From positions 1-64,000 of IMG/VR virus record IMGVR_UViG_3300045988_103907: a stretch of DNA of 64,000 nt. One strand, given 5' to 3'. Position 1 is the first letter of the stretch. Each line of letters starts with the position of its first letter. The notes below the pieces were generated by a model. That model was not told the origin of the DNA and made no database searches. It was given only the letters and a program-made list of their open reading frames with translations. A program made the translations under genes and the position numbers. Shown in pieces: positions 37,658-51,124 of this stretch. Source of the stretch: a virus.

Positions 37658-38288
37658 TTTCGCCCTCACTTTCGATGTAAGCCGTGAACTGTTCTGCAAA
37701 GGCACGAGCAACACCATGAAAAGTCTTGGCTCTATTTTTCGCATCCTCACCACGTTTGGCTGCGCCACGATTCCTTACATTGCCTTTATTGGCCGAAGTT
37801 CCACAAGGACAATACGGACCCTTCGGTTCAACCGCTTCAACCGGAACCAGATTAGGAAGACCTTTCAGCCATAAACAGGTCTTCTTTGTCCATGGGTGGT
37901 CCTTACCATAAAATTCATATGGCTGAATCATCTGCGATGGTTTTGGCATTTTATAGACAGCACTTGGAATTGGATTCTCAACACAAATGTGTTTAATCGG
38001 TGCGTTATAAAACGCCATAAAAAATTCCTTAGCTTCCAATCCTTGTTGATACCGTTCTTGATTCAATTTGTGCCCAGCCCACAACCATCGTGCGCCAGCA
38101 TTTGATAAATATGTACACGGAGGATGCGCAATCAATAGATCCCACTGCTCAACATAGTGTTGTATGCCATCCATTGTGACTATCTGCCCACCCTGTAGAG
38201 CTACCAGTGCATTACCCAAAATATGCCACTCTGGGTGACCACCGGACGGAGGTTGAATATCGCAAGAATACGCTTCATGACCAAGCAA
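37644..38288 (-). CDS. C5-cytosine DNA methyltransferase-like protein (short; start uncertain)
   Basis: Motif IV-like AHPPCTYLSNAG and motif VI-like ICVENP; coding signal extends upstream of the TTG start toward an AAGGAGG RBS with no canonical in-frame start. Confidence 0.55.
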   Translation of the reverse strand: MLGHEAYSCDIQPPSGGHPEWHILGNALVALQGGQIVTMDGIQHYVEQWDLLIAHPPCTYLSNAGARWLWAGHKLNQERYQQGLEAKEFFMAFYNAPIKHICVENPIPSAVYKMPKPSQMIQPYEFYGKDHPWTKKTCLWLKGLPNLVPVEAVEPKGPYCPCGTSANKGNVRNRGAAKRGEDAKNRAKTFHGVARAFAEQFTAYIESEGENARK

Positions 38289-38362
38289 TCGAAATGCTTT
38301 ACAAACTTCCTGTGATTCCTCACAGGCAATTAGAACTCGTAAGATTACACATTCCTCCTTTT

Positions 38363-38382
38363 CGTATCCTGTGTAATATATC
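38363..38382 (-). promoter_or_regulatory. Recurrent motif copy CGTATCCTGTGTAATATATC just upstream of the methyltransferase RBS
   Basis: Read in sequence. Confidence 0.4.
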
Positions 38383-38487
38383 TAAAACTTTAAAAATGAG
38401 CGAAAAACAATAGACGTATTAACGTCATATTATTCATTCGCTTATAAAACAAAAGTTCTAGCAGGTTTTATGTACGCCCTATCGGGC

Positions 38488-38579
38488 TGGTGGGACGTAA
38501 GGGACTCGAACCCCTGTGAGGTGTTATTCTCATCACCCGGTTATGAGCCAGGAGCTTTAACCAACTAAGCTAACGTCCC
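38488..38579 (-). tRNA. tRNA with CAU anticodon (Met/Ile2-type anticodon loop CUCAUAA) and an unusual ~20-nt variable arm; 92 nt with encoded CCA
   Basis: Hand-folded: acceptor GGGACGU/ACGUCCC, D arm GCUU/AAGC, anticodon stem CCUGG/CCGGG, T arm AGGGG-UUCGAGU-CCCUU. Confidence 0.5.
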
Positions 38580-38589
38580 ATGCAAACGC

Positions 38590-38680
38590 CGACTTTCATC
38601 GGCGCGATACCAGTGAAGGAATCGAACCTTATCTCTCGGTGTTTCCGAGCGCTTTTACCATTAAGCTATCCAGCCGTATA
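38590..38680 (-). ncRNA. tRNA-like element with canonical T arm (AAGG-UUCGAUU-CCUU) and D-arm-like segment but no foldable acceptor/anticodon stem; possible pseudo-tRNA
   Basis: Hand-folding fails (anticodon stem CUCGG/CCGAG encloses only 5 nt); followed by hairpin CGCCGA-UGAAAG-UCGGCG. Confidence 0.25.
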
Positions 38681-38806
38681 CCTCAGAATTTAATTCTCAC
38701 TATCCAAGCTACGTCGCGTTCCAATATGATCACTCTTGGCAACCATGTCGTAACATATAGGTTTCTTTCGGCTCTGAGTAACCGGTGCAGCGTAAGGGGC
38801 TGCGTG

Positions 38807-38882
38807 TGGAGCGACTGACGGGGTATGATCCCGCAACATTCAGATTGGAAATCTGACGCTCTGCCAATTGAACTACAGTCGC
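38807..38882 (-). tRNA. tRNA-Gly (UCC)
   Basis: Acceptor GCGACUG/CAGUCGC, anticodon loop UUUCCAA, 76 nt with CCA; atypical T loop AUCAUAC. Confidence 0.7.
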
Positions 38883-38988
38883 ATAATCACCCAGCTTGCA
38901 AAGCACTACTGCACCATCACTGGCGAGCTGGGAATAATAGTGGTAATCAAAGGAGATCAACAAACGGTACGCAACCATAAGTTGATAA

Positions 38989-39077
38989 TGGTGGACACGA
39001 CCCGATTTGAACGGGCACACCGCTGTTAACGGCAAAAGAGCCTAAATCTTTCATGTCTGCGATTCCATCACGTGTCC
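38989..39077 (-). tRNA. tRNA-Leu (UAG), class II
   Basis: Acceptor GGACACG/CGUGUCC, anticodon stem AAAGA/UCUUU loop UUUAGGC, variable arm CCG-UUAACAG-CGG, T arm GCCCG-UUCAAAU-CGGGU, CCA encoded. Confidence 0.65.
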
Positions 39078-39082
39078 ATAAA

Positions 39083-39172
39083 TTGAGGGTGTCGGGATCG
39101 AACCGACGATCGGCTATAAAGCACGCTGTCTGGGTCAAAGCCAGATGCCATTTACCACTTGGCGAACCCTCA
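39083..39172 (-). tRNA. tRNA with UUG anticodon (Gln-type loop CUUUGAC) and an unusual 21-nt variable arm; 90 nt, no encoded CCA
   Basis: Acceptor UGAGGGU/ACCCUCA, D arm GCCA/UGGC, anticodon stem UCUGG/CCAGA, T arm GUCGG-UUCGAUC-CCGAC. Confidence 0.5.
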
Positions 39173-39271
39173 TTATGTAACTTGGCTTGCTGCGTCCTAC
39201 TGCTCCGTTTTTTTGGAGAGCCAAGAATAATAGGAAGGTATTCATGAAAAGCAAGTGGAATACTCCACTGG

Positions 39272-39343
39272 TCCAAAATGTCGAATTCGAATCGCTCTTC
39301 TGCGTCCCAAACGCAGCGTGCTGCCATTACACTACATTCTGGA
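39272..39343 (-). ncRNA. Degenerate tRNA-like sequence (intact acceptor and UGG anticodon arm, defective D and T stems); possible pseudo-tRNA-Pro
   Basis: Acceptor UCCAGAA/UUUUGGA, anticodon stem CUGCG/CGCAG loop UUUGGGA; T stem pairs only 3 bp around UUCGAAU. Confidence 0.3.
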
Positions 39344-39345
39344 TA

Positions 39346-39433
39346 TGGTGCTACCGGAGGGGTATGATCCCTCAATTCCTCTCGGACGGTTGCTTTTAAG
39401 GCAACTGTGTCTCGCCAATTGCACCACGGTAGC
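39346..39433 (-). tRNA. tRNA-Leu (UAA), class II
   Basis: Acceptor GCUACCG/CGGUAGC, anticodon stem GUUGC/GCAAC loop CUUAAAA, variable arm UCC-GAGA-GGA, T arm GAGGG-AUCAUAC-CCCUC, CCA encoded. Confidence 0.7.
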
Positions 39434-39465
39434 ATATAATGTGGCGAGATAACTCGCCACATGTA

Positions 39466-40347
39466 TTATTTTCTTAATTCTTTCCTAGTTGCCGGGAGGC
39501 CATAATATCTACACCATTTTCTAACGGCATTATCAGTCACTCCATATTTTTCGCCAACCTTTAAGAAAGACATAGTTGTTATATCATTCAACAAAGTTTC
39601 TTTTGATGGCCATTCAACATTCCTTCTATCCGGCGAATGCCTATAGCATTCTTTACACAATGTTCCTTTCGTATTGTATTGTAAAGGTTTGCCACACACA
39701 GAGCATCGTCTGCATCTACATTCTCTTTTCTTAACAGGAACTGAAACTTCCTTTTTAGTAAATTCGATATTGTTTTCTTTAATCAATCTTTTAGCTTTGT
39801 CGTACCAACTCTTCGCGGAATAATTTATACCAATTTTAGAAAGTGCTTGTTTTATATTTGGTGATACTTTAAGTGCTTCTATCAACTTTTCTTCTGGAAC
39901 GGCCTCTTTGTATCTTATATTTTTCCCGCAGTAATTATCTGTTTGAGCATGACAATTTGGACATAAAAGTTGTAGATTGCTCAACTCATTGTTAAGCCTA
40001 TCTCCATCTACATGATGAACCTCCAATGGAATTTCATGTCCCAACTATTCTGTATTGCCACAACATTCACATTTATGAGGTCTTATGTAAAGCAAGGCTT
40101 TCCTTAACTGACTGCTAAAATATACTCCCTTTGTAAATTTTGACAAATCAAAGTTACCTTTGTTCTAGCCTTGTCCAGTAAAATGGGATATGTCTATATT
40201 ATTCTCTTCAACATATTTCTTTAAAGCCGAGTGAGTTCCACCGCTGTTGTCTTTATATCCAAGTTTTCTTGCAACAGCATCTAAGCTTTTACTCTCTCTA
40301 AAAGCTTGCTCAATTTCTTTTTTTGTAAATTTGTCGATTCTTTTCAT
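39466..40347 (-). CDS. HNH homing-endonuclease-like gene whose single reading frame is interrupted by two in-frame TAG codons (40165-40167 and 40045-40047): pseudogene or amber-recoded/suppressed gene
   Basis: Joined frame: N-terminal HTH-like 60 aa, TAG, ...IRPHKCECCGNTE, TAG, LGHEIPLEVHHVDGDRLNNELSNLQLLCPNCH (classic HNH), Zn-finger region, C-terminal KYGVTDNAVRKW HTH. Confidence 0.6.
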
Positions 40348-40538
40348 GAATTTGCCTCCAATATCTAATATGTGGACGTTCGGACTCTGGTGCCAAGGAC
40401 GGTATTCGAAACCGCATGTGTTTCCACAGCGAGGTTTGGGCTCGCCCTGTCTCCCATTTGCAGCACCTTGGCATATTGCCGGTCTTTCCCGGCTGTCAGC
40501 CCCGCGCAGGGCATTTTCGGAGGAAGAAAATATCTTAG

Positions 40539-42749
40539 TTATTCGTGCCGATTCTCATAGAATTCATTCCGTAACTGAATAATACCCTTCTTGCAAAAAG
40601 ATTCCTGGTCTTTCTCTCGTTGCTCACGCATCCAACCATAGAACAGGTTATCCTCAGCAGTAAACAACTTTGCGGTATTTTCATAATAGCCACGCTTCTG
40701 AACGCTCTGCATAACACCACGCAAGAACTTCCAGTGCTTATAATAAGGAAGCTTCAGCTTAAACATAAAATTGTTGTTATCTCTCAAAACAAAGCCTTCA
40801 ATATGCTCGATGCCATGGTACAGATAATTCTCATTCATGACCTCTTCATACCAAGGATAGAATTCACTCCAGCTCTCAAAGATCTTAACCTTCTCCTTAA
40901 TCTGCAAATGACACTTTTCAGCAACACGCTTCAGATCATCGTAATCCATCACACTGAAGTTCATATCATTCGCAACAATATCCAGCAAAACAATGTGCGG
41001 TTTCTTGTATTCGATGATATGAGCATCATTCACAGGATCAATCACTTCAAAAATGATGGAACCATTCTCTTTTGCAACCTCCTTCAAATTCTTACGGTCT
41101 TCATCAGAGGTCGTATCCATGAGAATCTTTCGGAACATATCTGCAAAAGGCCCTTCAGGAGTGGATTTACTTGCAATGAACATACCATCCTGTTCTGCAT
41201 CATACGAGACAATGCCAAGAAATCCGTTTTCCTTCAGATATGCAGTCACCGGGAACTTCAAAGTGTTCTGTAGGTTTCCAATTCTCGTTTCATTCCGCTC
41301 ATCGACCGCAAAGGACTTATCATAGCTTCGAGCTACAATCTTATTCGTCTTTGTGTTAATGAACAATCCCCTTGCTTTGGTAGAAACCTCATCCCAGTGC
41401 TTCTTATAAAATGCTTCACGAGAGAAGTTGAAGGAAGAAATATCTCCGAATCGCTTCTCAAACACATATTTGCTTTGACGCATCTTACTGACAAGTTCTG
41501 CGTTATCGAACTCAGTTTTCATTTCAACGGCAGTTTCAGTCTTTGGCTCCTCTTTTCGGAATACATCGTTCTTTGTTTCTACACATTTGATTGACTGACC
41601 GTGTTCAAGTTCCACGCAACGGAGATATCCACCAAACTCAATTTTTCCTTCGAGGTTGTAGCACCGATGCCCCATATCAATAGGAACATCCTGCACATTT
41701 CGATGACCGAATATCTGAATGTAGCTATCCGGCATCGATTTTTCCCAAGACTCAGCCACGGTTAGCATATCAGGATAGCGACCAACACCCTTTACCATCT
41801 GGTCAGTAGACACGAATGGTAGAAATTCAGGCAAATAACTCAAACCACCATGGCTAACGAAGTATCTTTTCTCGTCGTAATCAAAATAGGAGCACTGTCC
41901 TACTCTCGAATAAACCTTACGAGCCGTATTATGGTCAATCCCTGCTTTGAAAAGCTGCGGACGAGTGTAGTTTGCGAACTCCTCGCTCTGAACCGGTTCA
42001 TCATGGCCCCACTTGTTCAGCCACCGTTCGTGATTTCCTTCAAGGAGAATTACATTCTTCCGATTATTGTCTACAACATCACAAAGGAACTTGAACATCT
42101 CTACATTCTCAATACCGCGATCCAGATAATCACCAACAAAAATGTACAGTTCATCATCCTTCAGGTCACCAAGGTACTCTTTCAAGCAACTGTAACATCC
42201 ATGTACATCACCGATGATATGAATTTTGTTCCAGTTGTTAAAGTCCTGCGGAACATAGTTCAATTTCTCAAGGACATTTACATCTGACGAAAGTACAGTC
42301 ACACCAGACGGAATCTTCTGTGTAGCAAATCGCGCATACATCTTATCAATAGCAGCATCTGGAACTCGCTTCAGAGGAGCACGAAGCGCATTACGCCGTT
42401 TACACTCATCAATCGGCAAATCAGTCATGTCGATGATGTACATTCTGTATCTGTACTGCTTTGCAAGATTCTTATAGCGATTGATTTCAACAGTTTTAGA
42501 GTTCGTTGCATCAATCACGGTAAATTCACCGTGAGACATCCGAACCTCCAACAGTTTAAAGAGCATATCCCAGACAACATCATCGTTCTGAGGAGAGATT
42601 TCCATTGTGCCAGCCGGGGTTTCCTGACCACCCTGACACATAAGGCGAATCGTATCGGCACTAAGCGTATACTTTTCCAGATCATGCTCTTTAATATAGG
42701 TGGATTTCCCGCATCCGGGTGCTCCACGGAAAAGAAGCAAAGTTCTCAT
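40539..42749 (-). CDS. Pnkp-like polynucleotide kinase / metallophosphatase / ligase-like adenylyltransferase (end-healing and sealing RNA-repair enzyme)
   Basis: N-terminal P-loop GAPGCGKST, central calcineurin-like IHIIGDVHGCYSCL...GDYLDRG...GNHE, C-terminal ligase motif I-like LKENGFLG; 736 aa. Confidence 0.65.
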   Translation of the reverse strand: MRTLLLFRGAPGCGKSTYIKEHDLEKYTLSADTIRLMCQGGQETPAGTMEISPQNDDVVWDMLFKLLEVRMSHGEFTVIDATNSKTVEINRYKNLAKQYRYRMYIIDMTDLPIDECKRRNALRAPLKRVPDAAIDKMYARFATQKIPSGVTVLSSDVNVLEKLNYVPQDFNNWNKIHIIGDVHGCYSCLKEYLGDLKDDELYIFVGDYLDRGIENVEMFKFLCDVVDNNRKNVILLEGNHERWLNKWGHDEPVQSEEFANYTRPQLFKAGIDHNTARKVYSRVGQCSYFDYDEKRYFVSHGGLSYLPEFLPFVSTDQMVKGVGRYPDMLTVAESWEKSMPDSYIQIFGHRNVQDVPIDMGHRCYNLEGKIEFGGYLRCVELEHGQSIKCVETKNDVFRKEEPKTETAVEMKTEFDNAELVSKMRQSKYVFEKRFGDISSFNFSREAFYKKHWDEVSTKARGLFINTKTNKIVARSYDKSFAVDERNETRIGNLQNTLKFPVTAYLKENGFLGIVSYDAEQDGMFIASKSTPEGPFADMFRKILMDTTSDEDRKNLKEVAKENGSIIFEVIDPVNDAHIIEYKKPHIVLLDIVANDMNFSVMDYDDLKRVAEKCHLQIKEKVKIFESWSEFYPWYEEVMNENYLYHGIEHIEGFVLRDNNNFMFKLKLPYYKHWKFLRGVMQSVQKRGYYENTAKLFTAEDNLFYGWMREQREKDQESFCKKGIIQLRNEFYENRHE

Positions 42750-42849: not shown

Positions 42850-42890
42850 GATGTTAAAATCAAGGGGCCGAAGCCCCCTGTTTTTAATTT
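42850..42890. terminator. Bidirectional Rho-independent terminator GGGGCCGAAGCCCC flanked by A/T runs
   Basis: GC stem with GAA-type loop, TGTTTTTAATTTTT on plus side, TTGATTTTAA on minus side. Confidence 0.6.
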
Positions 42891-43810
42891 TTGTGGAAGT
42901 ATTCGACCCAGCCCTTGTATCCCTGCCGGAAACTAATGTAAGCTACCTTGCTACACTTTCTTCCAATAATGTCTGCAAGAGGTTTTTTACCATTTCCGAA
43001 ACTAAGCTCCGCAAGGTTGAACTCTGAATTACTCTTACAGTAATCGTAGACCTTCACATACTCACCATTTCTGGTCAGATGTCTTCGATCTAAAATCTTT
43101 GTATGATGTCTTTTTTCGAGAATGTCATTCAGCCTCACAAAATAACTATGGATTGTATTTACAGACATCTTCGGGTCGCTGTCTACACCAGTTCTATCCT
43201 CTGTTTTACGAAGAATGTAATCACCATTTATGACATAAAATGTTCTGTATCCTCCCATATTGGGCGCATCATACTGTTTCATTTCATAACACTGCTTGAT
43301 GATATCCATCAACCTTGCGTCAACATCAGTCCTATCGAGGACAGTACGAGATTCAAAGTCTACATCGTTAATTGTTAGATTAGAAACCTCACTAGAAGTA
43401 AGACCGATCCAGTACAAAACAGCAATCACATTCATACGAATCTGATACGCTTCTTCATACTTGTTTAAGAAACCAACAAACTCATCAACCGATGCAAAAT
43501 ACTTGTCCTCGTACATATTGTCTGAACTCACATCGCTCTCTGAGAATTCAGCCAAATCATACATGCTTGTACGATTTTCGTTCTTGATATAACCAGTGAT
43601 TATCGATTTCACATTTCTGAATGAACGACTTGAGTTTACCCAATTGTATTTGGCAAACATCTTTACAAAATCATCTTTTGTGAAGTCGAATAGCTCATAC
43701 CCGCACTCCGCTTCGTAGTCCATAACATGGTTAAGTGTCGATATAACAAACTCGCCGCTTCTATCAGAATACTTTTCAGCAAAAGCGTTGATCTTTTCTT
43801 CAGTAAGCAT
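42884..43810 (-). CDS. Hypothetical protein
   Basis: 308 aa ORF; no firm motif recognised. Confidence 0.4.
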   Translation of the reverse strand: MLTEEKINAFAEKYSDRSGEFVISTLNHVMDYEAECGYELFDFTKDDFVKMFAKYNWVNSSRSFRNVKSIITGYIKNENRTSMYDLAEFSESDVSSDNMYEDKYFASVDEFVGFLNKYEEAYQIRMNVIAVLYWIGLTSSEVSNLTINDVDFESRTVLDRTDVDARLMDIIKQCYEMKQYDAPNMGGYRTFYVINGDYILRKTEDRTGVDSDPKMSVNTIHSYFVRLNDILEKRHHTKILDRRHLTRNGEYVKVYDYCKSNSEFNLAELSFGNGKKPLADIIGRKCSKVAYISFRQGYKGWVEYFHKN

Positions 43811-43863: not shown

Positions 43864-44283
43864 TCAAGCAAATGCGGCAAAATTCTGAAATTCCATAGTA
43901 TGTTGTACGCCGCTCACGAACGCCGAGATCAAAAACGGTTCATCCTTGCATCTGGCCATTGCGATCATATTCATATGACGCTCAGACAAGACACCAAGCT
44001 TTTTGATAAACTGCCCTTTGTTAAGTGTGTCAGTCTCTTCACAGAGAACGATACTGTCAACCTCTAGGAAATCGCAATCTTCCTTTGAGAGCAGGACATG
44101 AACCGGAGAACGCTTGTATGTTCTGGAAGACAACGGATTCCCTTTGATTGTGGGACTGAAGAAGTTGCGCTTATTGTTACTCGTCACAACGAACGGTCGA
44201 ATACCGCGCTGCTGATGACCTGTCGCATTGGATAGATCAACCAACCAAACCTCTCCGACCTTTGGGTCAATATTGTTGTCCAT
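43864..44283 (-). CDS. MazF/PemK-like endoribonuclease toxin
   Basis: GEVWLVDLSNATGHQQRGIRPFVVTSNN...VHVLL...LEVDSIVLCEETDTLNKGQF pattern typical of PemK/MazF. Confidence 0.6.
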   Translation of the reverse strand: MDNNIDPKVGEVWLVDLSNATGHQQRGIRPFVVTSNNKRNFFSPTIKGNPLSSRTYKRSPVHVLLSKEDCDFLEVDSIVLCEETDTLNKGQFIKKLGVLSERHMNMIAMARCKDEPFLISAFVSGVQHTMEFQNFAAFA

Positions 44284-45634: not shown

Positions 45635-46411
45635 TCACTCCATTTCGTTCAGAAGCTCTTTTGCATGGTCAAGCACAGTATTGGAAACGACCTTGCCGCC
45701 GCGATTTAGAAGCAAGAACACACGCAACGTATCCTTCTTAGAAAGATTCCGCAAATCCGCGATAGCAATTGCAGTCTCATCAAAGGTTCTCTTATCCTTC
45801 TTAGAGAGTTCACTGTACAGATATCCTTTATAACGGAACCGATCTTCGTAGAACGCAGCAAGTGTCAGAAGTCTCTGCTTACCGTCAATGATTTCATAAA
45901 GGTAGTTCTGATTTTCATGCCATTCGTCCATGCCAATGTTTTTCAGAACAAATCGACCGATTTCACCACCCATAAAAATTGTCTCAAGAAGCAGTTTACG
46001 GTCATCATCCGTCCATACGGACCCACGCTGGTAACTCGGATTGCAATTGATGCCAAAGAAATAATACCTGTGAAGTAAAGATTCAATAGTCACGTTTGAG
46101 TAAGAAATCTTAATATCTTCATTCTCTGTCAGTTGAGATTTTTTCTCAACACCTGCTTTACGAATGTTAAACCACGTTTCGTACCTATATCCATCATCAT
46201 AAGAAACACCGTAATATAAACCACCGTCGCAGACTTCATCAATCTTGCATCCGCTAAGATTACCAATCTCTACAGCATCTCCCACATCATAATAGTATGT
46301 AGGCTCGCCAGCACGACTTGCCATCTCAGGAAGCTCCGTAAAAGTAGGCGACTTACGAGCTATTTCTTTCGGTGCCAATTGTTTAGCTTCTACTGTCTTC
46401 TTTTTCAGCAC
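45635..46411 (-). CDS. DUF262/ParB-like domain protein
   Basis: IIDGKQRLLTLAAF resembles the DGQQR motif of DUF262 (GmrSD N-domain) / ParB DGHHR. Confidence 0.5.
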   Translation of the reverse strand: MLKKKTVEAKQLAPKEIARKSPTFTELPEMASRAGEPTYYYDVGDAVEIGNLSGCKIDEVCDGGLYYGVSYDDGYRYETWFNIRKAGVEKKSQLTENEDIKISYSNVTIESLLHRYYFFGINCNPSYQRGSVWTDDDRKLLLETIFMGGEIGRFVLKNIGMDEWHENQNYLYEIIDGKQRLLTLAAFYEDRFRYKGYLYSELSKKDKRTFDETAIAIADLRNLSKKDTLRVFLLLNRGGKVVSNTVLDHAKELLNEME

Positions 46412-49568: not shown

Positions 49569-50258
49569 TTATGCTGTTCCCAGCTCTCTTTTAACAAGCG
49601 GACGACGTTTTGTTGCGTTTTTCAACCAATCGTTTCCACTAGGAGCTTGTCTATCCACTCTTGTATTACGGCCACTCCCTATCGGACACACCCGTCGATA
49701 ATCATCAACGGTCTTACAACCAAGAGATTCAGCTTCGTCCAGTGCTTTTCGCACATAAGCCCATGTACCACCGCCTAGATCAGAACACTTTCCAATCACG
49801 GCAAGCACGAGTTCATCACCCATACGCTCAACATATTCTGCCAATGCCTTCTTTCCTGTGGCACCGAGCTTCCCGATATTCTCTCGAAATACGTCCTCGA
49901 TAGATTTCGTCGTTGTCTCTTCATAAGACGAAGACGATATCTTTTCTTTTTCTTTCTCTTTTTCTTTTTCTAGCTTGCTCTTGCTTGCGTTTGCTTCGTT
50001 TTGCTTACGCTTGCTTTCTCCGCCAGCCCTTCCAGAAATGCGCTTACCTTCGATGTATTCAGCATCCTTAATTAAATCCCTCTTGATAGCAGGCCACACA
50101 TACCGCTCATTTCCGTTAAGTTCAGGCTCCGTTCCAGACGATTTATATTTCATCATCGCCAGTACCAGACGCCCCACCTCAGCAGCACTAAGTGGTTCAA
50201 AGTAGCTCTCATAAGTATCCCAGATTTTAATATAAGTATCAGCCATCATACACCTCAA
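49569..50258 (-). CDS. Hypothetical protein with KE-repeat linker and DnaD-like C-terminal region (possible replication-associated)
   Basis: KSKLEKEKEKEKEK low-complexity run; C-terminal LAEYVERMGDELVLAVIGKCSDLGGGTWAYVRKALDEAE reminiscent of DnaD-like domains. Confidence 0.35.
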   Translation of the reverse strand: MRCMMADTYIKIWDTYESYFEPLSAAEVGRLVLAMMKYKSSGTEPELNGNERYVWPAIKRDLIKDAEYIEGKRISGRAGGESKRKQNEANASKSKLEKEKEKEKEKISSSSYEETTTKSIEDVFRENIGKLGATGKKALAEYVERMGDELVLAVIGKCSDLGGGTWAYVRKALDEAESLGCKTVDDYRRVCPIGSGRNTRVDRQAPSGNDWLKNATKRRPLVKRELGTA

Positions 50259-51124
50259 GAGTCTTCATGACAGTCCACGCCATAATCAATCCCAGAGTAG
50301 TATTCATCATCCACTTCTTCATCCAGACCAATATAGCGAAGCGTAATTGCCTGACTACTGTGATTCAGACTATGCTGCAACCACGCAAGAGCTTTTACGT
50401 CATTTGGATGAGATTCAATAAACTGATATCCGAAAGTTTTGCGGCAACTATGAGAACCAAGCTGTACAGAAAGATTTAACTCCTTACCAACTTGACGCAT
50501 GATTCTACCAAAAGAATCTACATCAAGCGGATCGCCCATTTCTTTTGGATTCGCATCATACTTACGGAACACATCAGATTTACTCACGCTTGTTCCACCG
50601 TTTGTTCTCATGGAGTTCTTCCAACTGCCTTGCCGAGACGGGAAGAGCCAATCGTCATAAGACAATCCATCAATATTGATATAAGTTTGAATACACTTTA
50701 ATGCCGGGACCGGAACTTTAAGAATGCGATACTTATTTGTTTTCTTTTCCTTAACACGAAGTTTTGCGTTGAAATTCACCACAACCTTTCCATTCATATC
50801 TGTAGCTGCTACATCAGAAACCTTCAAACGAAGCAAATCACTTGCTCTGAATCCTGTGCAACATCCTACATTAAACAAACACCAGTTGCGGTACTGACGT
50901 TTAATCCAAAAATATTCTGAAATACGTTTGATATCCTCTTTGTCTTTAATTGGCTGAACTGACCCATGATTTGCTTCCATACGAGTTAGGCTATAATTCT
51001 TTTTAACTACGTTCTGACGTTTTTCTTTGTTAGAAGAATCGTAGTCAGAAAAATCAAGAGCAACAGTATTTTCGATTTTCTTTTCGTTTTCAAGCGCACT
51101 CATCACATTCACCTTAAACTCCAT
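50255..51124 (-). CDS. Second tyrosine recombinase (XerC/D-like)
   Basis: LGSHSCRKTFG ... LQHSLNHSSQAITLRYI (R, H-x-x-R, H, Y). Confidence 0.7.
   Translation of the reverse strand: MEFKVNVMSALENEKKIENTVALDFSDYDSSNKEKRQNVVKKNYSLTRMEANHGSVQPIKDKEDIKRISEYFWIKRQYRNWCLFNVGCCTGFRASDLLRLKVSDVAATDMNGKVVVNFNAKLRVKEKKTNKYRILKVPVPALKCIQTYINIDGLSYDDWLFPSRQGSWKNSMRTNGGTSVSKSDVFRKYDANPKEMGDPLDVDSFGRIMRQVGKELNLSVQLGSHSCRKTFGYQFIESHPNDVKALAWLQHSLNHSSQAITLRYIGLDEEVDDEYYSGIDYGVDCHEDS

What the first reader, a model, noticed from the sequence alone, without database searches (positions are those of the whole stretch)
38488..39433. Phage tRNA island with two tRNAs that carry class-II-style long variable arms on non-class-II anticodons
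At least five tRNAs sit between the methyltransferase genes and the HNH gene. Hand-folded, they are CAU, Gly-UCC, Leu-UAG, UUG and Leu-UAA. The CAU tRNA (38488..38579, 92 nt) has a typical Met/Ile2 anticodon loop, CUCAUAA. It also has a 20-nt variable region with its own 4-bp stem. The UUG tRNA (39083..39172, 90 nt) has a 3-bp D stem and a 21-nt variable arm. In bacteria, long variable arms normally belong only to Leu, Ser, Tyr and Sec tRNAs. These could be novel phage tRNA variants, for example with altered identity elements or synthetase recognition. They could also be tRNAs carrying small insertions. The cluster lies beside an HNH endonuclease, as in the tRNA regions of T4 and T5.
Basis: seen in the sequence. 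Interest (0 to 1): 0.7.

Follow-up and report, generated by a model that had tools for sequence, protein, structure and literature searches.

The report
Phage tRNAs with an extra arm
Two real tRNA genes of an uncultured gut phage, one reading a glutamine codon and one probably an isoleucine codon, carry an extra hairpin arm that bacterial tRNAs of these types are not supposed to have, and I found the same oddity in many other uncultured phages.

Summary
ARAGORN and the Rfam tRNA model both call a 92-nt tRNA(CAU) at 38488-38579 and a 90-nt tRNA-Gln(UUG) at 39083-39172, both on the minus strand. Both keep a normal cloverleaf and 7-nt anticodon loop. A 15-17-nt hairpin sits in the variable region (20 and 21 nt in total).

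They are length variants of ordinary tRNAs. Sister phages (~135 kb, gut metagenomes) have 71-77-nt tRNA-Gln and 75-77-nt Ile2-like tRNA(CAU), or tRNA-Ile(UAU), in the same slots.

The window's island is a mosaic. A 1.5-kb cassette carrying the HNH gene, three Leu tRNAs, tRNA-Pro and the long tRNA-Gln has replaced the version in its closest relatives.

Long-arm tRNA-Gln(UUG) is widespread: 24 distinct arm sequences on at least 15 distinct tRNA bodies in viral contigs, folding better than shuffles. Long arms also occur on Ile, Val, Pro, Asn, Gly and Cys anticodons.

Codon substitutions show CAA still behaves as Gln and AUA as Ile.

Most likely these are working decoders with a tolerated, selectively kept extra arm. 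Its purpose is unproven; escape from tRNA-cutting host defences is one guess. I found no description of such phage tRNAs in the searched literature.

The parts
38488..38579 (-). tRNA(CAU), 92 nt with encoded CCA (38488-38490). Probably a lysidine-dependent tRNA-Ile2; elongator Met is not excluded.
   Evidence: ARAGORN. Rfam tRNA 58.4 bits. G1-C72 and a U.G pair in the anticodon stem argue against an initiator (sequence). Slot equivalence with Ile2-like 77-nt and Ile-UAU alleles.
38516..38535 (-). Variable region of tRNA(CAU), UGAUGAGAAUAACACCUCAC: 4-bp stem UGAG/CUCA with an 8-nt loop.
   Evidence: The stem is invariant and the loop variable in 13 distinct family members; the fifth pair is G-C, A-U, or A.C in the window.
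38616..38668 (-). tRNA-like element with a 5-nt 'anticodon' loop, inside a conserved 227-nt spacer.
   Evidence: Rfam tRNA 29.1 bits. T-stem covariation in relatives.
38807..38882 (-). tRNA-Gly(UCC)
   Evidence: 61 bits.
38989..39077 (-). tRNA-Leu(UAG), 5 nt downstream of tRNA-Gln.
   Evidence: 44.1 bits.
39083..39172 (-). tRNA-Gln(UUG), 90 nt, no encoded CCA, U1-A72, discriminator A73.
   Evidence: ARAGORN. Rfam tRNA 52.8 bits. Alignment to short alleles and to T4 tRNA-Gln.
39108..39128 (-). Variable region of tRNA-Gln, CAGCGUGCUUUAUAGCCGAUC: hairpin of 5 pairs with one bulged U and loop UUAU. C44, A45 and C48 are kept.
   Evidence: 45.2 bits.
39346..39433 (-). tRNA-Leu(UAA)
   Evidence: 44.2 bits.
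39466..40044 (-). HNH endonuclease ORF (192 aa), a free-standing homing-endonuclease-like gene inside the tRNA island.
   Evidence: Pfam HNH_3 and HNH. Present or absent at this and other slots in relatives.
40388..40472 (-). tRNA-Leu(CAA)
38979..40472 (-). Exchanged cassette: Leu-CAA, HNH, Leu-UAA, Pro, long-arm Gln and Leu-UAG. It has no blastn homology to the closest relatives, although their flanks are 92-96% identical.
40539..42749 (-). Polynucleotide kinase + metallophosphatase + Rnl1-type RNA ligase fusion (a tRNA repair enzyme), directly upstream of the island.
   Evidence: Pfam AAA_33, Metallophos and RNA_lig_T4_1.

Best explanation
**What they are.** Both are genuine phage tRNA genes. 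One is a tRNA-Gln(UUG) that reads CAA. The other is a tRNA(CAU) that most likely reads AUA as isoleucine after lysidine modification; I put elongator Met at about 30%.

**The extra arm.** Each has a 15-17-nt hairpin inserted at position 47 of the variable loop. That is where natural class II tRNAs (Leu, Ser, Tyr) carry their extra arm. The nucleotides that make tertiary contacts (44, 45, 48) are kept.

**Origin.** They are alleles of ordinary-length tRNAs found in the same slots of sister phages. They sit in a T4-like tRNA island that is reshuffled by cassette exchange around free-standing HNH endonuclease genes.

**How they most likely work.** They are still charged with the usual amino acid and used in translation. 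The arm would project from the hinge of the L-shaped molecule, as in tRNA-Leu or tRNA-Ser, and so be tolerated by the ribosome and EF-Tu.

**Selection.** The arm is kept by selection rather than being fresh junk. Hairpin potential is preserved across many independent lineages.

**What the arm is for.** This is inference only. My leading guess (about 25%) is that it changes how tRNA-binding proteins see the phage tRNA, for example host tRNA-cleaving defence nucleases. The main alternative is a tolerated insertion that spreads by linkage to the homing endonuclease.

**Shown:** gene reality, position of the insert, allelism, mosaicism, recurrence, no recoding signal.
**Inferred:** charging, use in translation, adaptive value.
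For: - **Real tRNAs.** Two independent detectors agree on the cloverleaf and the anticodons.
- **Allelic slots.** Across 80 related loci, the Gln slot holds 71/72/74/75/77-nt and 87/88/90-nt alleles. The CAU slot holds 75/77/81/92-nt alleles or Ile-UAU.
- **Same body, with and without arm.** The 88-nt allele of L037 shares its body with the 72-nt allele but has a long arm of different sequence.
- **Ile2 link.** The 77-nt CAU allele matches annotated E. coli tRNA-Ile at 81%. T4's annotated tRNA-Ile has the same CAU anticodon and ARAGORN also labels it Met.
- **CAU arm conservation.** The 4-bp stem is invariant, variation is concentrated in the loop, and the fifth pair is G-C, A-U or broken.
- **Gln arm recurrence.** There are 24 distinct variable regions of 15-25 nt on at least 15 distinct tRNA bodies. 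23 of 24 fold better than the shuffle mean (Wilcoxon p 2e-7), and nearly all keep CA at the start and C at the end.
- **A lone long-arm tRNA.** One family is the only tRNA of ~45-kb phages and sits just upstream of the scaffold and major head genes.
- **Standard decoding.** Window CAA codons are replaced mainly by CAG, and ATA by ATC/ATT. Synonymous fractions are 0.56-0.57 for CAA and 0.50-0.59 for ATA, against 0.64-0.67 for the GAA and AAA controls.
- **Cassette exchange.** Breakpoints lie at 40473 and 38978 relative to relatives whose repair-enzyme protein is 100% identical.
- **Homing endonuclease genes** occupy several slots of the island.
- **Independent assemblies.** The arrangement is in four separate assemblies.
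- **Context.** A tRNA repair enzyme lies next door. Published work shows phage tRNAs resist host tRNases through changes in the tRNA body (PMC10264068, PMC12445682, PMC11464382).
Against: - No expression, processing or charging data exist; all relatives are uncultured.
- Sister phages manage with ordinary-length alleles, so the arm is not required.
- In the window's CAU tRNA the fifth arm pair is broken (A.C), and neither arm on its own folds significantly better than shuffles.
- Covariation in the CAU arm rests on very few events.
- The 92-nt CAU allele has no detectable match to E. coli tRNA-Ile, so Ile2 identity rests on slot equivalence and on the A-ending-codon pattern of the set.
- AUA (7% of Ile) and CAA (24% of Gln) are rare in the window's genes, so demand for these tRNAs is not obvious from this region.
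- The host, and therefore its synthetases and defences, is unknown. The nearest cultured relatives are Firmicutes phages at only ~33% polymerase identity.
Confidence: 0.6

Rival explanations
1. Selfish or neutral insertion. The hairpins are functionless indels that the tRNA tolerates. They persist because they are linked to homing endonuclease cassettes, or because they destroy an endonuclease target site. They do nothing for translation or defence.
For: - Long-arm tRNA-Gln is enriched on haplotypes with a 0.75-1 kb insert between Leu-CAA and Leu-UAA: 7 of 10 long-arm genomes against 4 of about 68 short-arm genomes. Five of the seven inserts are HNH homologues.
- The long Gln allele arrived in the window on the same 1.5-kb cassette as the HNH gene.
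- Close relatives lack the arms.
- The CAU arm of the window has a broken pair.
Against: - Three long-arm genomes (L012, L070, L072) have no endonuclease gene at that slot.
- The ~45-kb phages keep a nearly invariant long arm in their single tRNA, with no tRNA island or endonuclease context.
- Hairpin potential is preserved across about two dozen unrelated arm sequences.
- The association is confounded by linkage and shared ancestry.
Confidence: 0.25
2. Identity switch. The class-II-style arm recruits SerRS, LeuRS or TyrRS, so CAA or AUA/AUG is partly read as another amino acid (recoding or deliberate mistranslation). This would parallel nematode V-arm tRNAs or allo-tRNAs.
For: - SerRS recognises the long arm rather than the anticodon (PMC7609411, PMC5389517).
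- The Gln tRNA has G2-C71, A3-U70 and C11-G24, and its discriminator is A73 as in tRNA-Leu (sequence).
Against: - CAA codons of the window are exchanged mainly with CAG. They show no excess of Ser, Leu or Tyr codons in relatives, and behave the same in long-arm and short-arm genomes.
- The weak 1-72 pair typical of tRNA-Gln is kept in nearly all long-arm families.
- A73 is also present in the normal-length alleles.
- The bodies are homologous to tRNA-Gln and to the CAU alleles, not to Leu, Ser or Tyr tRNAs.
- The acceptor/T arrangement is 7/5, not 8/4 or 9/3.
Confidence: 0.07
3. Not translational adaptors. They are tRNA-shaped decoys, regulators or decaying pseudogenes, for example sponges for host tRNA nucleases, like the other tRNA-like RNAs in the island.
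For: - The island does contain non-canonical tRNA-like elements: 38616-38668 and a 'His-AUG' with G33 in relatives.
- T4 has stable RNAs of unknown function beside its tRNAs.
- The codons these tRNAs would read are rare in the window.
Against: - Their covariance-model scores (52.8-58.4 bits) are higher than those of the island's Leu and Pro tRNAs (44-45 bits).
- U8, A14, G18G19, U33, purine 37, the GTTC T loop and the 7/5 helices are intact, and the CAU tRNA encodes CCA.
- They are the only Gln and CAU genes of the island and occupy slots filled by canonical tRNAs in relatives.
- Compensatory changes maintain all four standard helices in the CAU family.
Confidence: 0.1
4. The arm is an intervening sequence. 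It is cut out of the precursor and the halves are rejoined by the neighbouring kinase-phosphatase-ligase enzyme, giving a normal-length mature tRNA.
For: - A heal-and-seal RNA repair enzyme is encoded directly upstream.
- The insert is a discrete block relative to the short alleles.
Against: - Every relative with short-arm tRNAs carries the same enzyme; that is how the relatives were found.
- No endonuclease, intron or ribozyme signature was detected in the region.
- The ~45-kb phages with a long-arm Gln showed no such enzyme among the neighbouring genes I examined.
- The insert lies where natural extra arms lie.
Confidence: 0.03

Closest known systems
Class II (type 2) bacterial tRNAs: tRNA-Leu, tRNA-Ser, tRNA-Tyr, tRNA-Sec
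   Same: The extra stem-loop is inserted between positions 45 and 48 of the variable region. Total variable region is 15-25 nt and the cloverleaf is otherwise standard.
   Different: The anticodons are UUG and CAU, and the bodies are homologous to tRNA-Gln and to CAU tRNAs. Reviews state that long arms are restricted to Leu, Ser, Tyr and Sec (PMC7609411, PMC9976931).
Phage T4 tRNA cluster (Gln-Leu-Gly-Pro-Ser-Thr-Ile(CAU)-segB-Arg-rnaD-rnaC)
   Same: The order Gln, Leu, Gly with only a few nt between Gln and Leu. It also has Pro-UGG, a CAU tRNA near the end, a homing endonuclease gene inside the cluster and tRNA-like stable RNAs. The phage also encodes RNA ligase and kinase functions for tRNA repair.
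   Different: T4 tRNA-Gln (74 nt) and tRNA-Ile (74 nt) have normal variable loops. T4's endonuclease is GIY-YIG (SegB), not HNH. There is no detectable overall DNA similarity beyond tRNA-Gly to T4-like phages.
Nematode and other eukaryotic V-arm-containing tRNAs (nev-tRNAs; Hamashima et al., cited as ref. 8 in PMC5389517; content recalled from memory)
   Same: A long variable arm combined with an anticodon that does not belong to Leu, Ser or Tyr.
   Different: From memory, those derive from tRNA-Leu and are charged with Leu. Here the bodies are Gln-like and CAU-type, the setting is a phage, and codon evidence shows standard decoding.
allo-tRNAs and 8/4 tRNAs of bacteria and phages (PMC5389517)
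   Same: Found by metagenome mining, some in phage tRNA clusters. They have a long variable arm with non-Ser anticodons.
   Different: allo-tRNAs have 8/4 or 9/3 acceptor/T helices and tRNA-Sec-like D arms. The window tRNAs have the canonical 7/5 arrangement and ordinary D arms.
Phage tRNAs that escape host tRNA nucleases (T5 tRNA-Lys against PARIS, tRNA-Tyr against retron Eco7, tRNA-Thr against P2 OLD; PMC11464382, PMC11555353, PMC12445682, PMC10264068)
   Same: Phage-encoded copies of a host tRNA that differ in body structure. Here there is also a hypervariable allelic series and tRNA repair genes nearby.
   Different: The known cases rely on anticodon-loop or anticodon-stem changes. No case uses a variable-arm insertion, and no nuclease target is known here.

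Membership tests
tRNA (Rfam RF00005) | Covariance-model score above the gathering threshold, with the full cloverleaf matched. | tested here: met
   58.4 and 52.8 bits against a threshold of 29, model positions 1-71 of 71. ARAGORN agrees.
Class II tRNA (structural class) | Variable region longer than 10 nt that forms its own stem-loop between positions 44/45 and 48. | tested here: met
   20 nt and 21 nt with 4-5-bp stems. Stem conservation in the families.
Class II tRNA (Leu/Ser/Tyr isoacceptors) | Anticodon of Leu, Ser or Tyr, with the body related to those tRNAs. | tested here: not met
   The anticodons are UUG and CAU in canonical 7-nt loops. The bodies align with short tRNA-Gln and CAU alleles.
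tRNA-Gln | UUG or CUG anticodon, and a weak 1-72 pair (U1-A72) used by GlnRS and GatCAB. | tested here: met
   UUG and U1-A72. Nearly all of the 24 long-arm variants keep U-A, A-U or G.U at 1-72.
tRNA-Gln | Discriminator G73 (E. coli GlnRS identity element; from memory). | tested here: not met
   A73. The normal-length alleles of the same phage group also have A73, so this is a property of the lineage and not of the long arm.
tRNA-Gln | Charged with Gln (directly or via Glu-tRNA-Gln). | not testable with these tools
   Indirect only: CAA is exchanged with CAG at normal synonymous rates.
tRNA-Ile2 (lysidine, AUA reader) | CAU anticodon with sequence relatedness to known tRNA-Ile2. | tested here: inconclusive
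   The 77-nt allele in the same slot hits annotated E. coli tRNA-Ile at 81%. The 92-nt allele gives no hit. The slot is alternatively filled by tRNA-Ile(UAU) in four relatives. T4's homologous position holds tRNA-Ile(CAU).
tRNA-Ile2 (lysidine, AUA reader) | Substrate of TilS. | not testable with these tools
   The host and its TilS type are unknown.
Bacterial initiator tRNA-fMet | Mismatch at 1-72 and three consecutive G-C pairs at the bottom of the anticodon stem (from memory). | tested here: not met
   G1-C72 is paired, and the anticodon stem CCUGG/CCGGG has U.G at 29-41.
allo-tRNA / 8/4 tRNA (PMC5389517) | 12-bp acceptor branch split 8/4 or 9/3. | tested here: not met
   7-bp acceptor stem and 5-bp T stem in both tRNAs.
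Intron-containing tRNA | Intervening sequence in the anticodon loop (group I or protein-spliced), or a matching intron model. | tested here: not met
   The anticodon loops are intact. The Rfam scan of 38200-40700 at E up to 5 finds only tRNA. By contrast, many hits of the generic scan in giant-virus contigs do have anticodon-loop inserts.

The most novel reading that the evidence does not exclude
The extra arm is a counter-defence device. By adding a hairpin at the hinge of the tRNA, gut phages would make their own tRNA-Gln, tRNA-Ile and other tRNAs unrecognisable to host or prophage tRNA-cleaving immune nucleases, or make them selectively recognisable to phage enzymes, while keeping them usable by synthetases and ribosomes. 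The many independent long-arm lineages across isotypes would then be convergent products of an arms race. That would be a new, structural class of escape, beyond the anticodon-loop and anticodon-stem mutations known so far.
Probability: 0.22. Interest if true: 0.85.

Novelty: new variant of a known kind. Interest (0 to 1): 0.6.

Why it matters
Textbooks and current reviews restrict long variable arms in bacteria to the Leu, Ser, Tyr and Sec tRNAs. For SerRS the arm is itself an identity signal.

A recurrent, conserved set of phage tRNAs combines that arm with Gln, Ile and other anticodons. This shows that the class I / class II division of tRNA shape is not fixed in viruses.

It raises testable questions:
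- How do GlnRS or GluRS/GatCAB, IleRS, TilS and SerRS treat such hybrids?
- Is the arm a way of escaping the tRNA-targeting immune systems now being found in bacteria?

The natural pairs of long-arm and short-arm alleles in near-identical phage backgrounds are ready-made experimental controls. Such scaffolds may also be useful for engineering orthogonal or tagged tRNAs.

Tried and rejected
1. **Only class I synthetase substrates tolerate a long arm.** The first examples (Gln, Ile, CAU, Trp) suggested this. A generic scan refuted it by finding long-arm Asn-GUU, Pro-UGG and Gly-UCC tRNAs.
2. **Recoding of CAA or AUA.** Codon substitution patterns are normal.
3. **Misfolded ordinary Leu/Ser/Tyr tRNA.** Rejected by the covariance-model alignment.
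4. **Ribozymes or introns in or between the tRNAs,** including the theta ribozymes reported next to gut-phage tRNAs (PMC10879173). Nothing appeared in Rfam at E up to 5.
5. **Cultured relatives.** The tRNA region matches only tRNA-Gly of T4-like phages. Two long-arm Gln families match no annotated phage tRNA over full length, only an unannotated faecal fragment.
6. **Host chromosomal origin.** The genome-collection scan gave 112 non-tRNA chance matches out of 120. Six long-arm Gln loci were found, all in Clostridia-type MAG contigs; four of the five whose tRNA neighbourhood I read are phage-like tRNA arrays.
7. **Host identification.** The exact repair-enzyme protein returned only metagenome contigs.
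8. **Similarity of the 92-nt CAU tRNA to E. coli tRNAs.** None found.
9. **Promoter and terminator scan.** Uninformative, apart from a terminator-like hairpin at 38413-38426 downstream of the island.
10. **Literature.** Eight full-text searches found no description of phage or bacterial long-arm tRNA-Gln or tRNA-Ile2. Subscription journals are largely outside the library.
Full report
**1. The observation**

ARAGORN finds seven tRNA genes between 38488 and 40472, all on the minus strand:
- CAU, 38488-38579, 92 nt
- Gly-UCC, 38807-38882
- Leu-UAG, 38989-39077
- Gln-UUG, 39083-39172, 90 nt
- Pro-UGG, 39269-39342
- Leu-UAA, 39346-39433
- Leu-CAA, 40388-40472, beyond the HNH ORF

The Rfam tRNA covariance model independently matches the CAU tRNA at 58.4 bits and the UUG tRNA at 52.8 bits, against a gathering score of 29. 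Both matches cover all 71 model positions. In both, a 17-nt insertion is placed in the variable region and the 7-nt anticodon loops CUCAUAA and CUUUGAC are intact.

The variable regions are:
- 38516-38535, UGAUGAGAAUAACACCUCAC, with stem UGAG/CUCA
- 39108-39128, CAGCGUGCUUUAUAGCCGAUC, with five pairs, one bulge and loop UUAU

The strand is minus. tRNA-Pro was missed. The D stem of tRNA-Gln is 4 bp. A weak tRNA-like element lies at 38616-38668.

**2. Surroundings**

The window is part of a large uncultured phage, or a phage-like element. Its genes include:
- DnaE-type polymerase, primase, helicase, RecJ-like exonuclease, DNA ligase and anaerobic ribonucleotide reductase
- ThyX, FolD and integrases
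- DNA methyltransferase-like ORFs just downstream of the island
- an HNH ORF inside the island
- directly upstream, a 736-aa fusion of polynucleotide kinase, metallophosphatase and Rnl1-type RNA ligase, which is a tRNA heal-and-seal enzyme
- a MazF-like toxin and a GmrSD-like gene

The polymerase is at most ~35% identical to cultured phages, the best of which infect Firmicutes. GC content is about 41%. The host is unknown.

**3. Relatives show that these are length alleles of ordinary tRNAs**

The repair enzyme retrieved 80 loci from ~75-150-kb IMG/VR contigs, at 90-100% protein identity. ARAGORN on these loci shows the same island with very variable occupants.

| Slot | Alleles seen (number of loci) |
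|---|---|
| Gln-UUG | 71 nt (42), 72 (17), 74 (7), 75 (2), 77 (1), 87 (1), 88 (2), 90 (6) |
| Last slot | CAU tRNAs of 77 nt (51), 75 (2), 81 (5), 92 (8); tRNA-Ile(UAU) of 76 nt (4); an odd 91-nt tRNA (1) |

Alignments show that the long alleles differ from the short ones, and from T4 tRNA-Gln and tRNA-Ile, by one block in the variable loop.

The 88-nt allele of L037 shares its body with the 72-nt allele. It has a long arm whose stem sequence differs from the window's (CGCU/AGCG against CG-GCU/AGC-CG). The flanking CAG and RUC are kept.

**4. The island is a mosaic**

Against L001 and L006, whose repair-enzyme protein is 100% identical, homology of 92-96% stops at 40473 and resumes at 38978. 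Everything from Leu-CAA through HNH, Leu-UAA, Pro and Gln to Leu-UAG has been replaced. That cassette matches L066/L078 (HNH 96% identical) and L007/L014.

HNH homologues or other 0.75-1.8-kb inserts sit at four different positions of the island in different relatives.

Long-arm Gln alleles are enriched on insert-bearing haplotypes, 7 of 10 against 4 of about 68. This is confounded by linkage, and three long-arm genomes have no insert.

No locus among the 80 combined Gln90 with CAU92. Four independent ENA assemblies do carry exactly the window's arrangement, so it is real.

**5. Identity of the CAU tRNA**

It is not an initiator: it has G1-C72 and a U.G pair in the anticodon stem.

Several points favour an AUA-reading tRNA-Ile2.
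- The 77-nt allele in the same slot matches annotated E. coli tRNA-Ile at 81%.
- The slot is alternatively occupied by tRNA-Ile(UAU).
- T4's equivalent gene is annotated tRNA-Ile, has anticodon CAU, and ARAGORN labels it Met as well.
- The rest of the set reads mostly A-ending codons: five of the other six tRNAs have U34.

Against this, the 92-nt allele itself has no E. coli match.

I estimate Ile2 at about 65% and elongator Met at about 30%.

**6. Is the arm conserved?**

*CAU family.* A pattern scan of viral contigs gave 35 loci with the 92-nt CAU tRNA and 13 distinct sequences once the related loci are included. The cloverleaf is 95.7% paired. In the arm:
- the four basal pairs never vary
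- the next pair is G-C in ten sequences, A-U in one, and A.C in the window's version and one other variant
- almost all variation lies in the apical loop; one member has a 6-bp stem with a GAAA loop

This is conservation with only a few covariation events.

*tRNA-Gln.* The scan CCAAGNGG...CUUUGA...GGUUCRA, with room for a 15-25-nt variable region, matched 94 stretches. ARAGORN of the first 80 retrieved loci long tRNA-Gln(UUG). Over all loci there are 24 distinct variable regions, on at least 15 distinct tRNA bodies.
- All but one form 3-7-bp hairpins by minimum-energy folding.
- 23 of 24 are more stable than the mean of their shuffles (mean -3.8 against -1.4 kcal/mol; Wilcoxon p 2e-7). The 24 are not all independent.
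- Nearly all begin with CA and all end with C. So positions 44, 45 and 48, which make tertiary contacts, are kept and the insert sits where class II tRNAs have theirs.
- Nearly all keep a weak 1-72 pair.

One family (84 nt, about 40 loci) is the only tRNA of ~45-kb phages and lies just upstream of the scaffold and major head genes.

**7. How general is it?**

Bystander tRNAs in the fetched loci included long-arm Ile-UAU and Trp-CCA. This suggested a restriction to substrates of class I synthetases.

A generic scan for tRNAs with a GCUC/GAGC D arm and a long gap refuted that. Apart from many anticodon-loop introns in giant-virus contigs, it found long variable arms on Asn-GUU, Pro-UGG, Gly-UCC, Cys-GCA, Val-UAC, Ile-UAU and another CAU tRNA.

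The converse also occurs. In 23 relatives tRNA-Leu(CAA) is only 79 nt including CCA, with a 5-nt variable loop. Variable-arm length is therefore unusually plastic in these phage tRNAs.

In the collection of bacterial species genomes, 112 of the first 120 pattern matches were not tRNAs. The six long-arm Gln loci all lay in Clostridia-type MAG contigs. Four of the five whose tRNA neighbourhood I read are phage-like tRNA arrays, some with tmRNA and suppressor-type tRNAs.

Cultured phages in GenBank have no full-length match.

**8. Decoding**

I aligned 15 window genes with their orthologues in the 80 loci.
- CAA codons are conserved or replaced mostly by CAG. The synonymous share of changes is 0.56 in short-arm and 0.57 in long-arm genomes.
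- The controls GAA and AAA give 0.64-0.67.
- ATA is replaced mostly by ATC or ATT, not ATG.
- There is no excess of Ser, Leu or Tyr codons.

So there is no sign of reassignment. CAA makes up 24% of Gln codons and ATA 7% of Ile codons in the window's long ORFs.

**9. Mechanism**

*Shown:* real tRNA genes, insertion at the class II position, allelism with canonical tRNAs, cassette exchange around homing-endonuclease genes, recurrence and hairpin conservation, standard codon meaning.

*Inferred:* they are charged by the usual enzymes and used on the ribosome, with the arm projecting from the hinge as in tRNA-Leu or tRNA-Ser.

The purpose of the arm is open. The context fits the published picture of phage tRNAs evolving body changes to resist host tRNases (PMC10264068, PMC11464382, PMC11555353, PMC12445682). 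That context is a tRNA repair enzyme, toxin genes and a hypervariable allelic series. I rate that reading at about one in four to one in five. A tolerated insertion spreading with the endonuclease cassette is about equally likely.

**10. Comparison with what is known, and novelty**

Reviews restrict long arms to Leu, Ser, Tyr and Sec (PMC7609411, PMC9976931).

Known exceptions are eukaryotic V-arm tRNAs and allo-tRNAs (PMC5389517). These have Leu-like, Ser-like or Sec-like bodies, or 8/4 and 9/3 helices. That differs from the canonical 7/5 Gln-type and CAU-type bodies seen here.

Eight full-text searches found no report of long-arm tRNA-Gln or tRNA-Ile2 in phages or bacteria. The library lacks most subscription journals.

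I class the finding as a new variant of a known kind and score its interest at 0.6.

Noticed in passing
window 38616-38668 (-), within spacer 38580-38806: A tRNA-like element (Rfam tRNA 29.1 bits) with a 5-nt 'anticodon' loop and a poor acceptor stem. It sits in a 227-nt spacer conserved in many relatives, and its T stem covaries (AAGG/CCTT to GAGG/CCTC). It is reminiscent of T4's stable RNAs rnaC and rnaD beside its tRNA cluster.
   Followed up: partly
L007:13974-14162 and about 20 other related loci: Relatives with the 75-nt Gly allele carry an unrelated ~188-nt spacer before the CAU tRNA. It has several hairpins showing compensatory changes (for example GGATCT/AGATCT, GGATTT/AAATCC, GGGATTT/AGTCCC). 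It may be a structured small RNA.
   Followed up: no
L004:6631-6709 and 22 other related loci: A tRNA-Leu(CAA) of only 79 nt including CCA, with a 5-nt variable loop. This is the converse anomaly: a class II anticodon on a class I shape, in the same island of sister phages.
   Followed up: partly
L004:7309-7382 and 16 other related loci: A 74-nt 'tRNA-His(AUG)' call with G at position 33, between Leu-UAG and Gly. It is a non-canonical tRNA-like gene that is absent from the window.
   Followed up: no
L065 and L309 (91 nt); related L379 and L388: tRNA-Ile(UAU)-type genes with a 21-22-nt variable arm containing CCAGAUAAG. In L065 this replaces the CAU tRNA in the last slot of the island.
   Followed up: partly
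L345, L364, L433 (viral contigs): The same motif, RGGCGAAUAG, occurs in the long variable regions of three different isotypes (Gly-UCC, Ile-UAU, Val-UAC) from different contigs, and does not form an obvious hairpin.
   Followed up: no
window 40539-42749 (-): A 736-aa fusion of polynucleotide kinase, metallophosphatase and Rnl1-type RNA ligase. The domain order matches bacterial Pnkp repair enzymes (comparison from memory). It is conserved at 90-100% identity in more than 100 gut phage contigs.
   Followed up: partly
window 43864-44283 (-) and 45635-46411 (-): A MazF/PemK-like endoribonuclease toxin and a GmrSD-like restriction domain protein are encoded a few kb from the tRNA island. Integrase-family genes lie at 226-1392, 42884-43810 and 50255-51124.
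   Followed up: no
window 38947-39462 (-): A 171-aa ORF that public gene callers annotate in identical contigs lies entirely over the tRNA genes, so it is almost certainly spurious.
   Followed up: partly
L184, L276, L143, L145: Other phage-like tRNA arrays with long-arm tRNA-Gln also carry tmRNA genes and CUA-anticodon (amber suppressor type) tRNAs. This hints that some of these phages use recoded stop codons.
   Followed up: no
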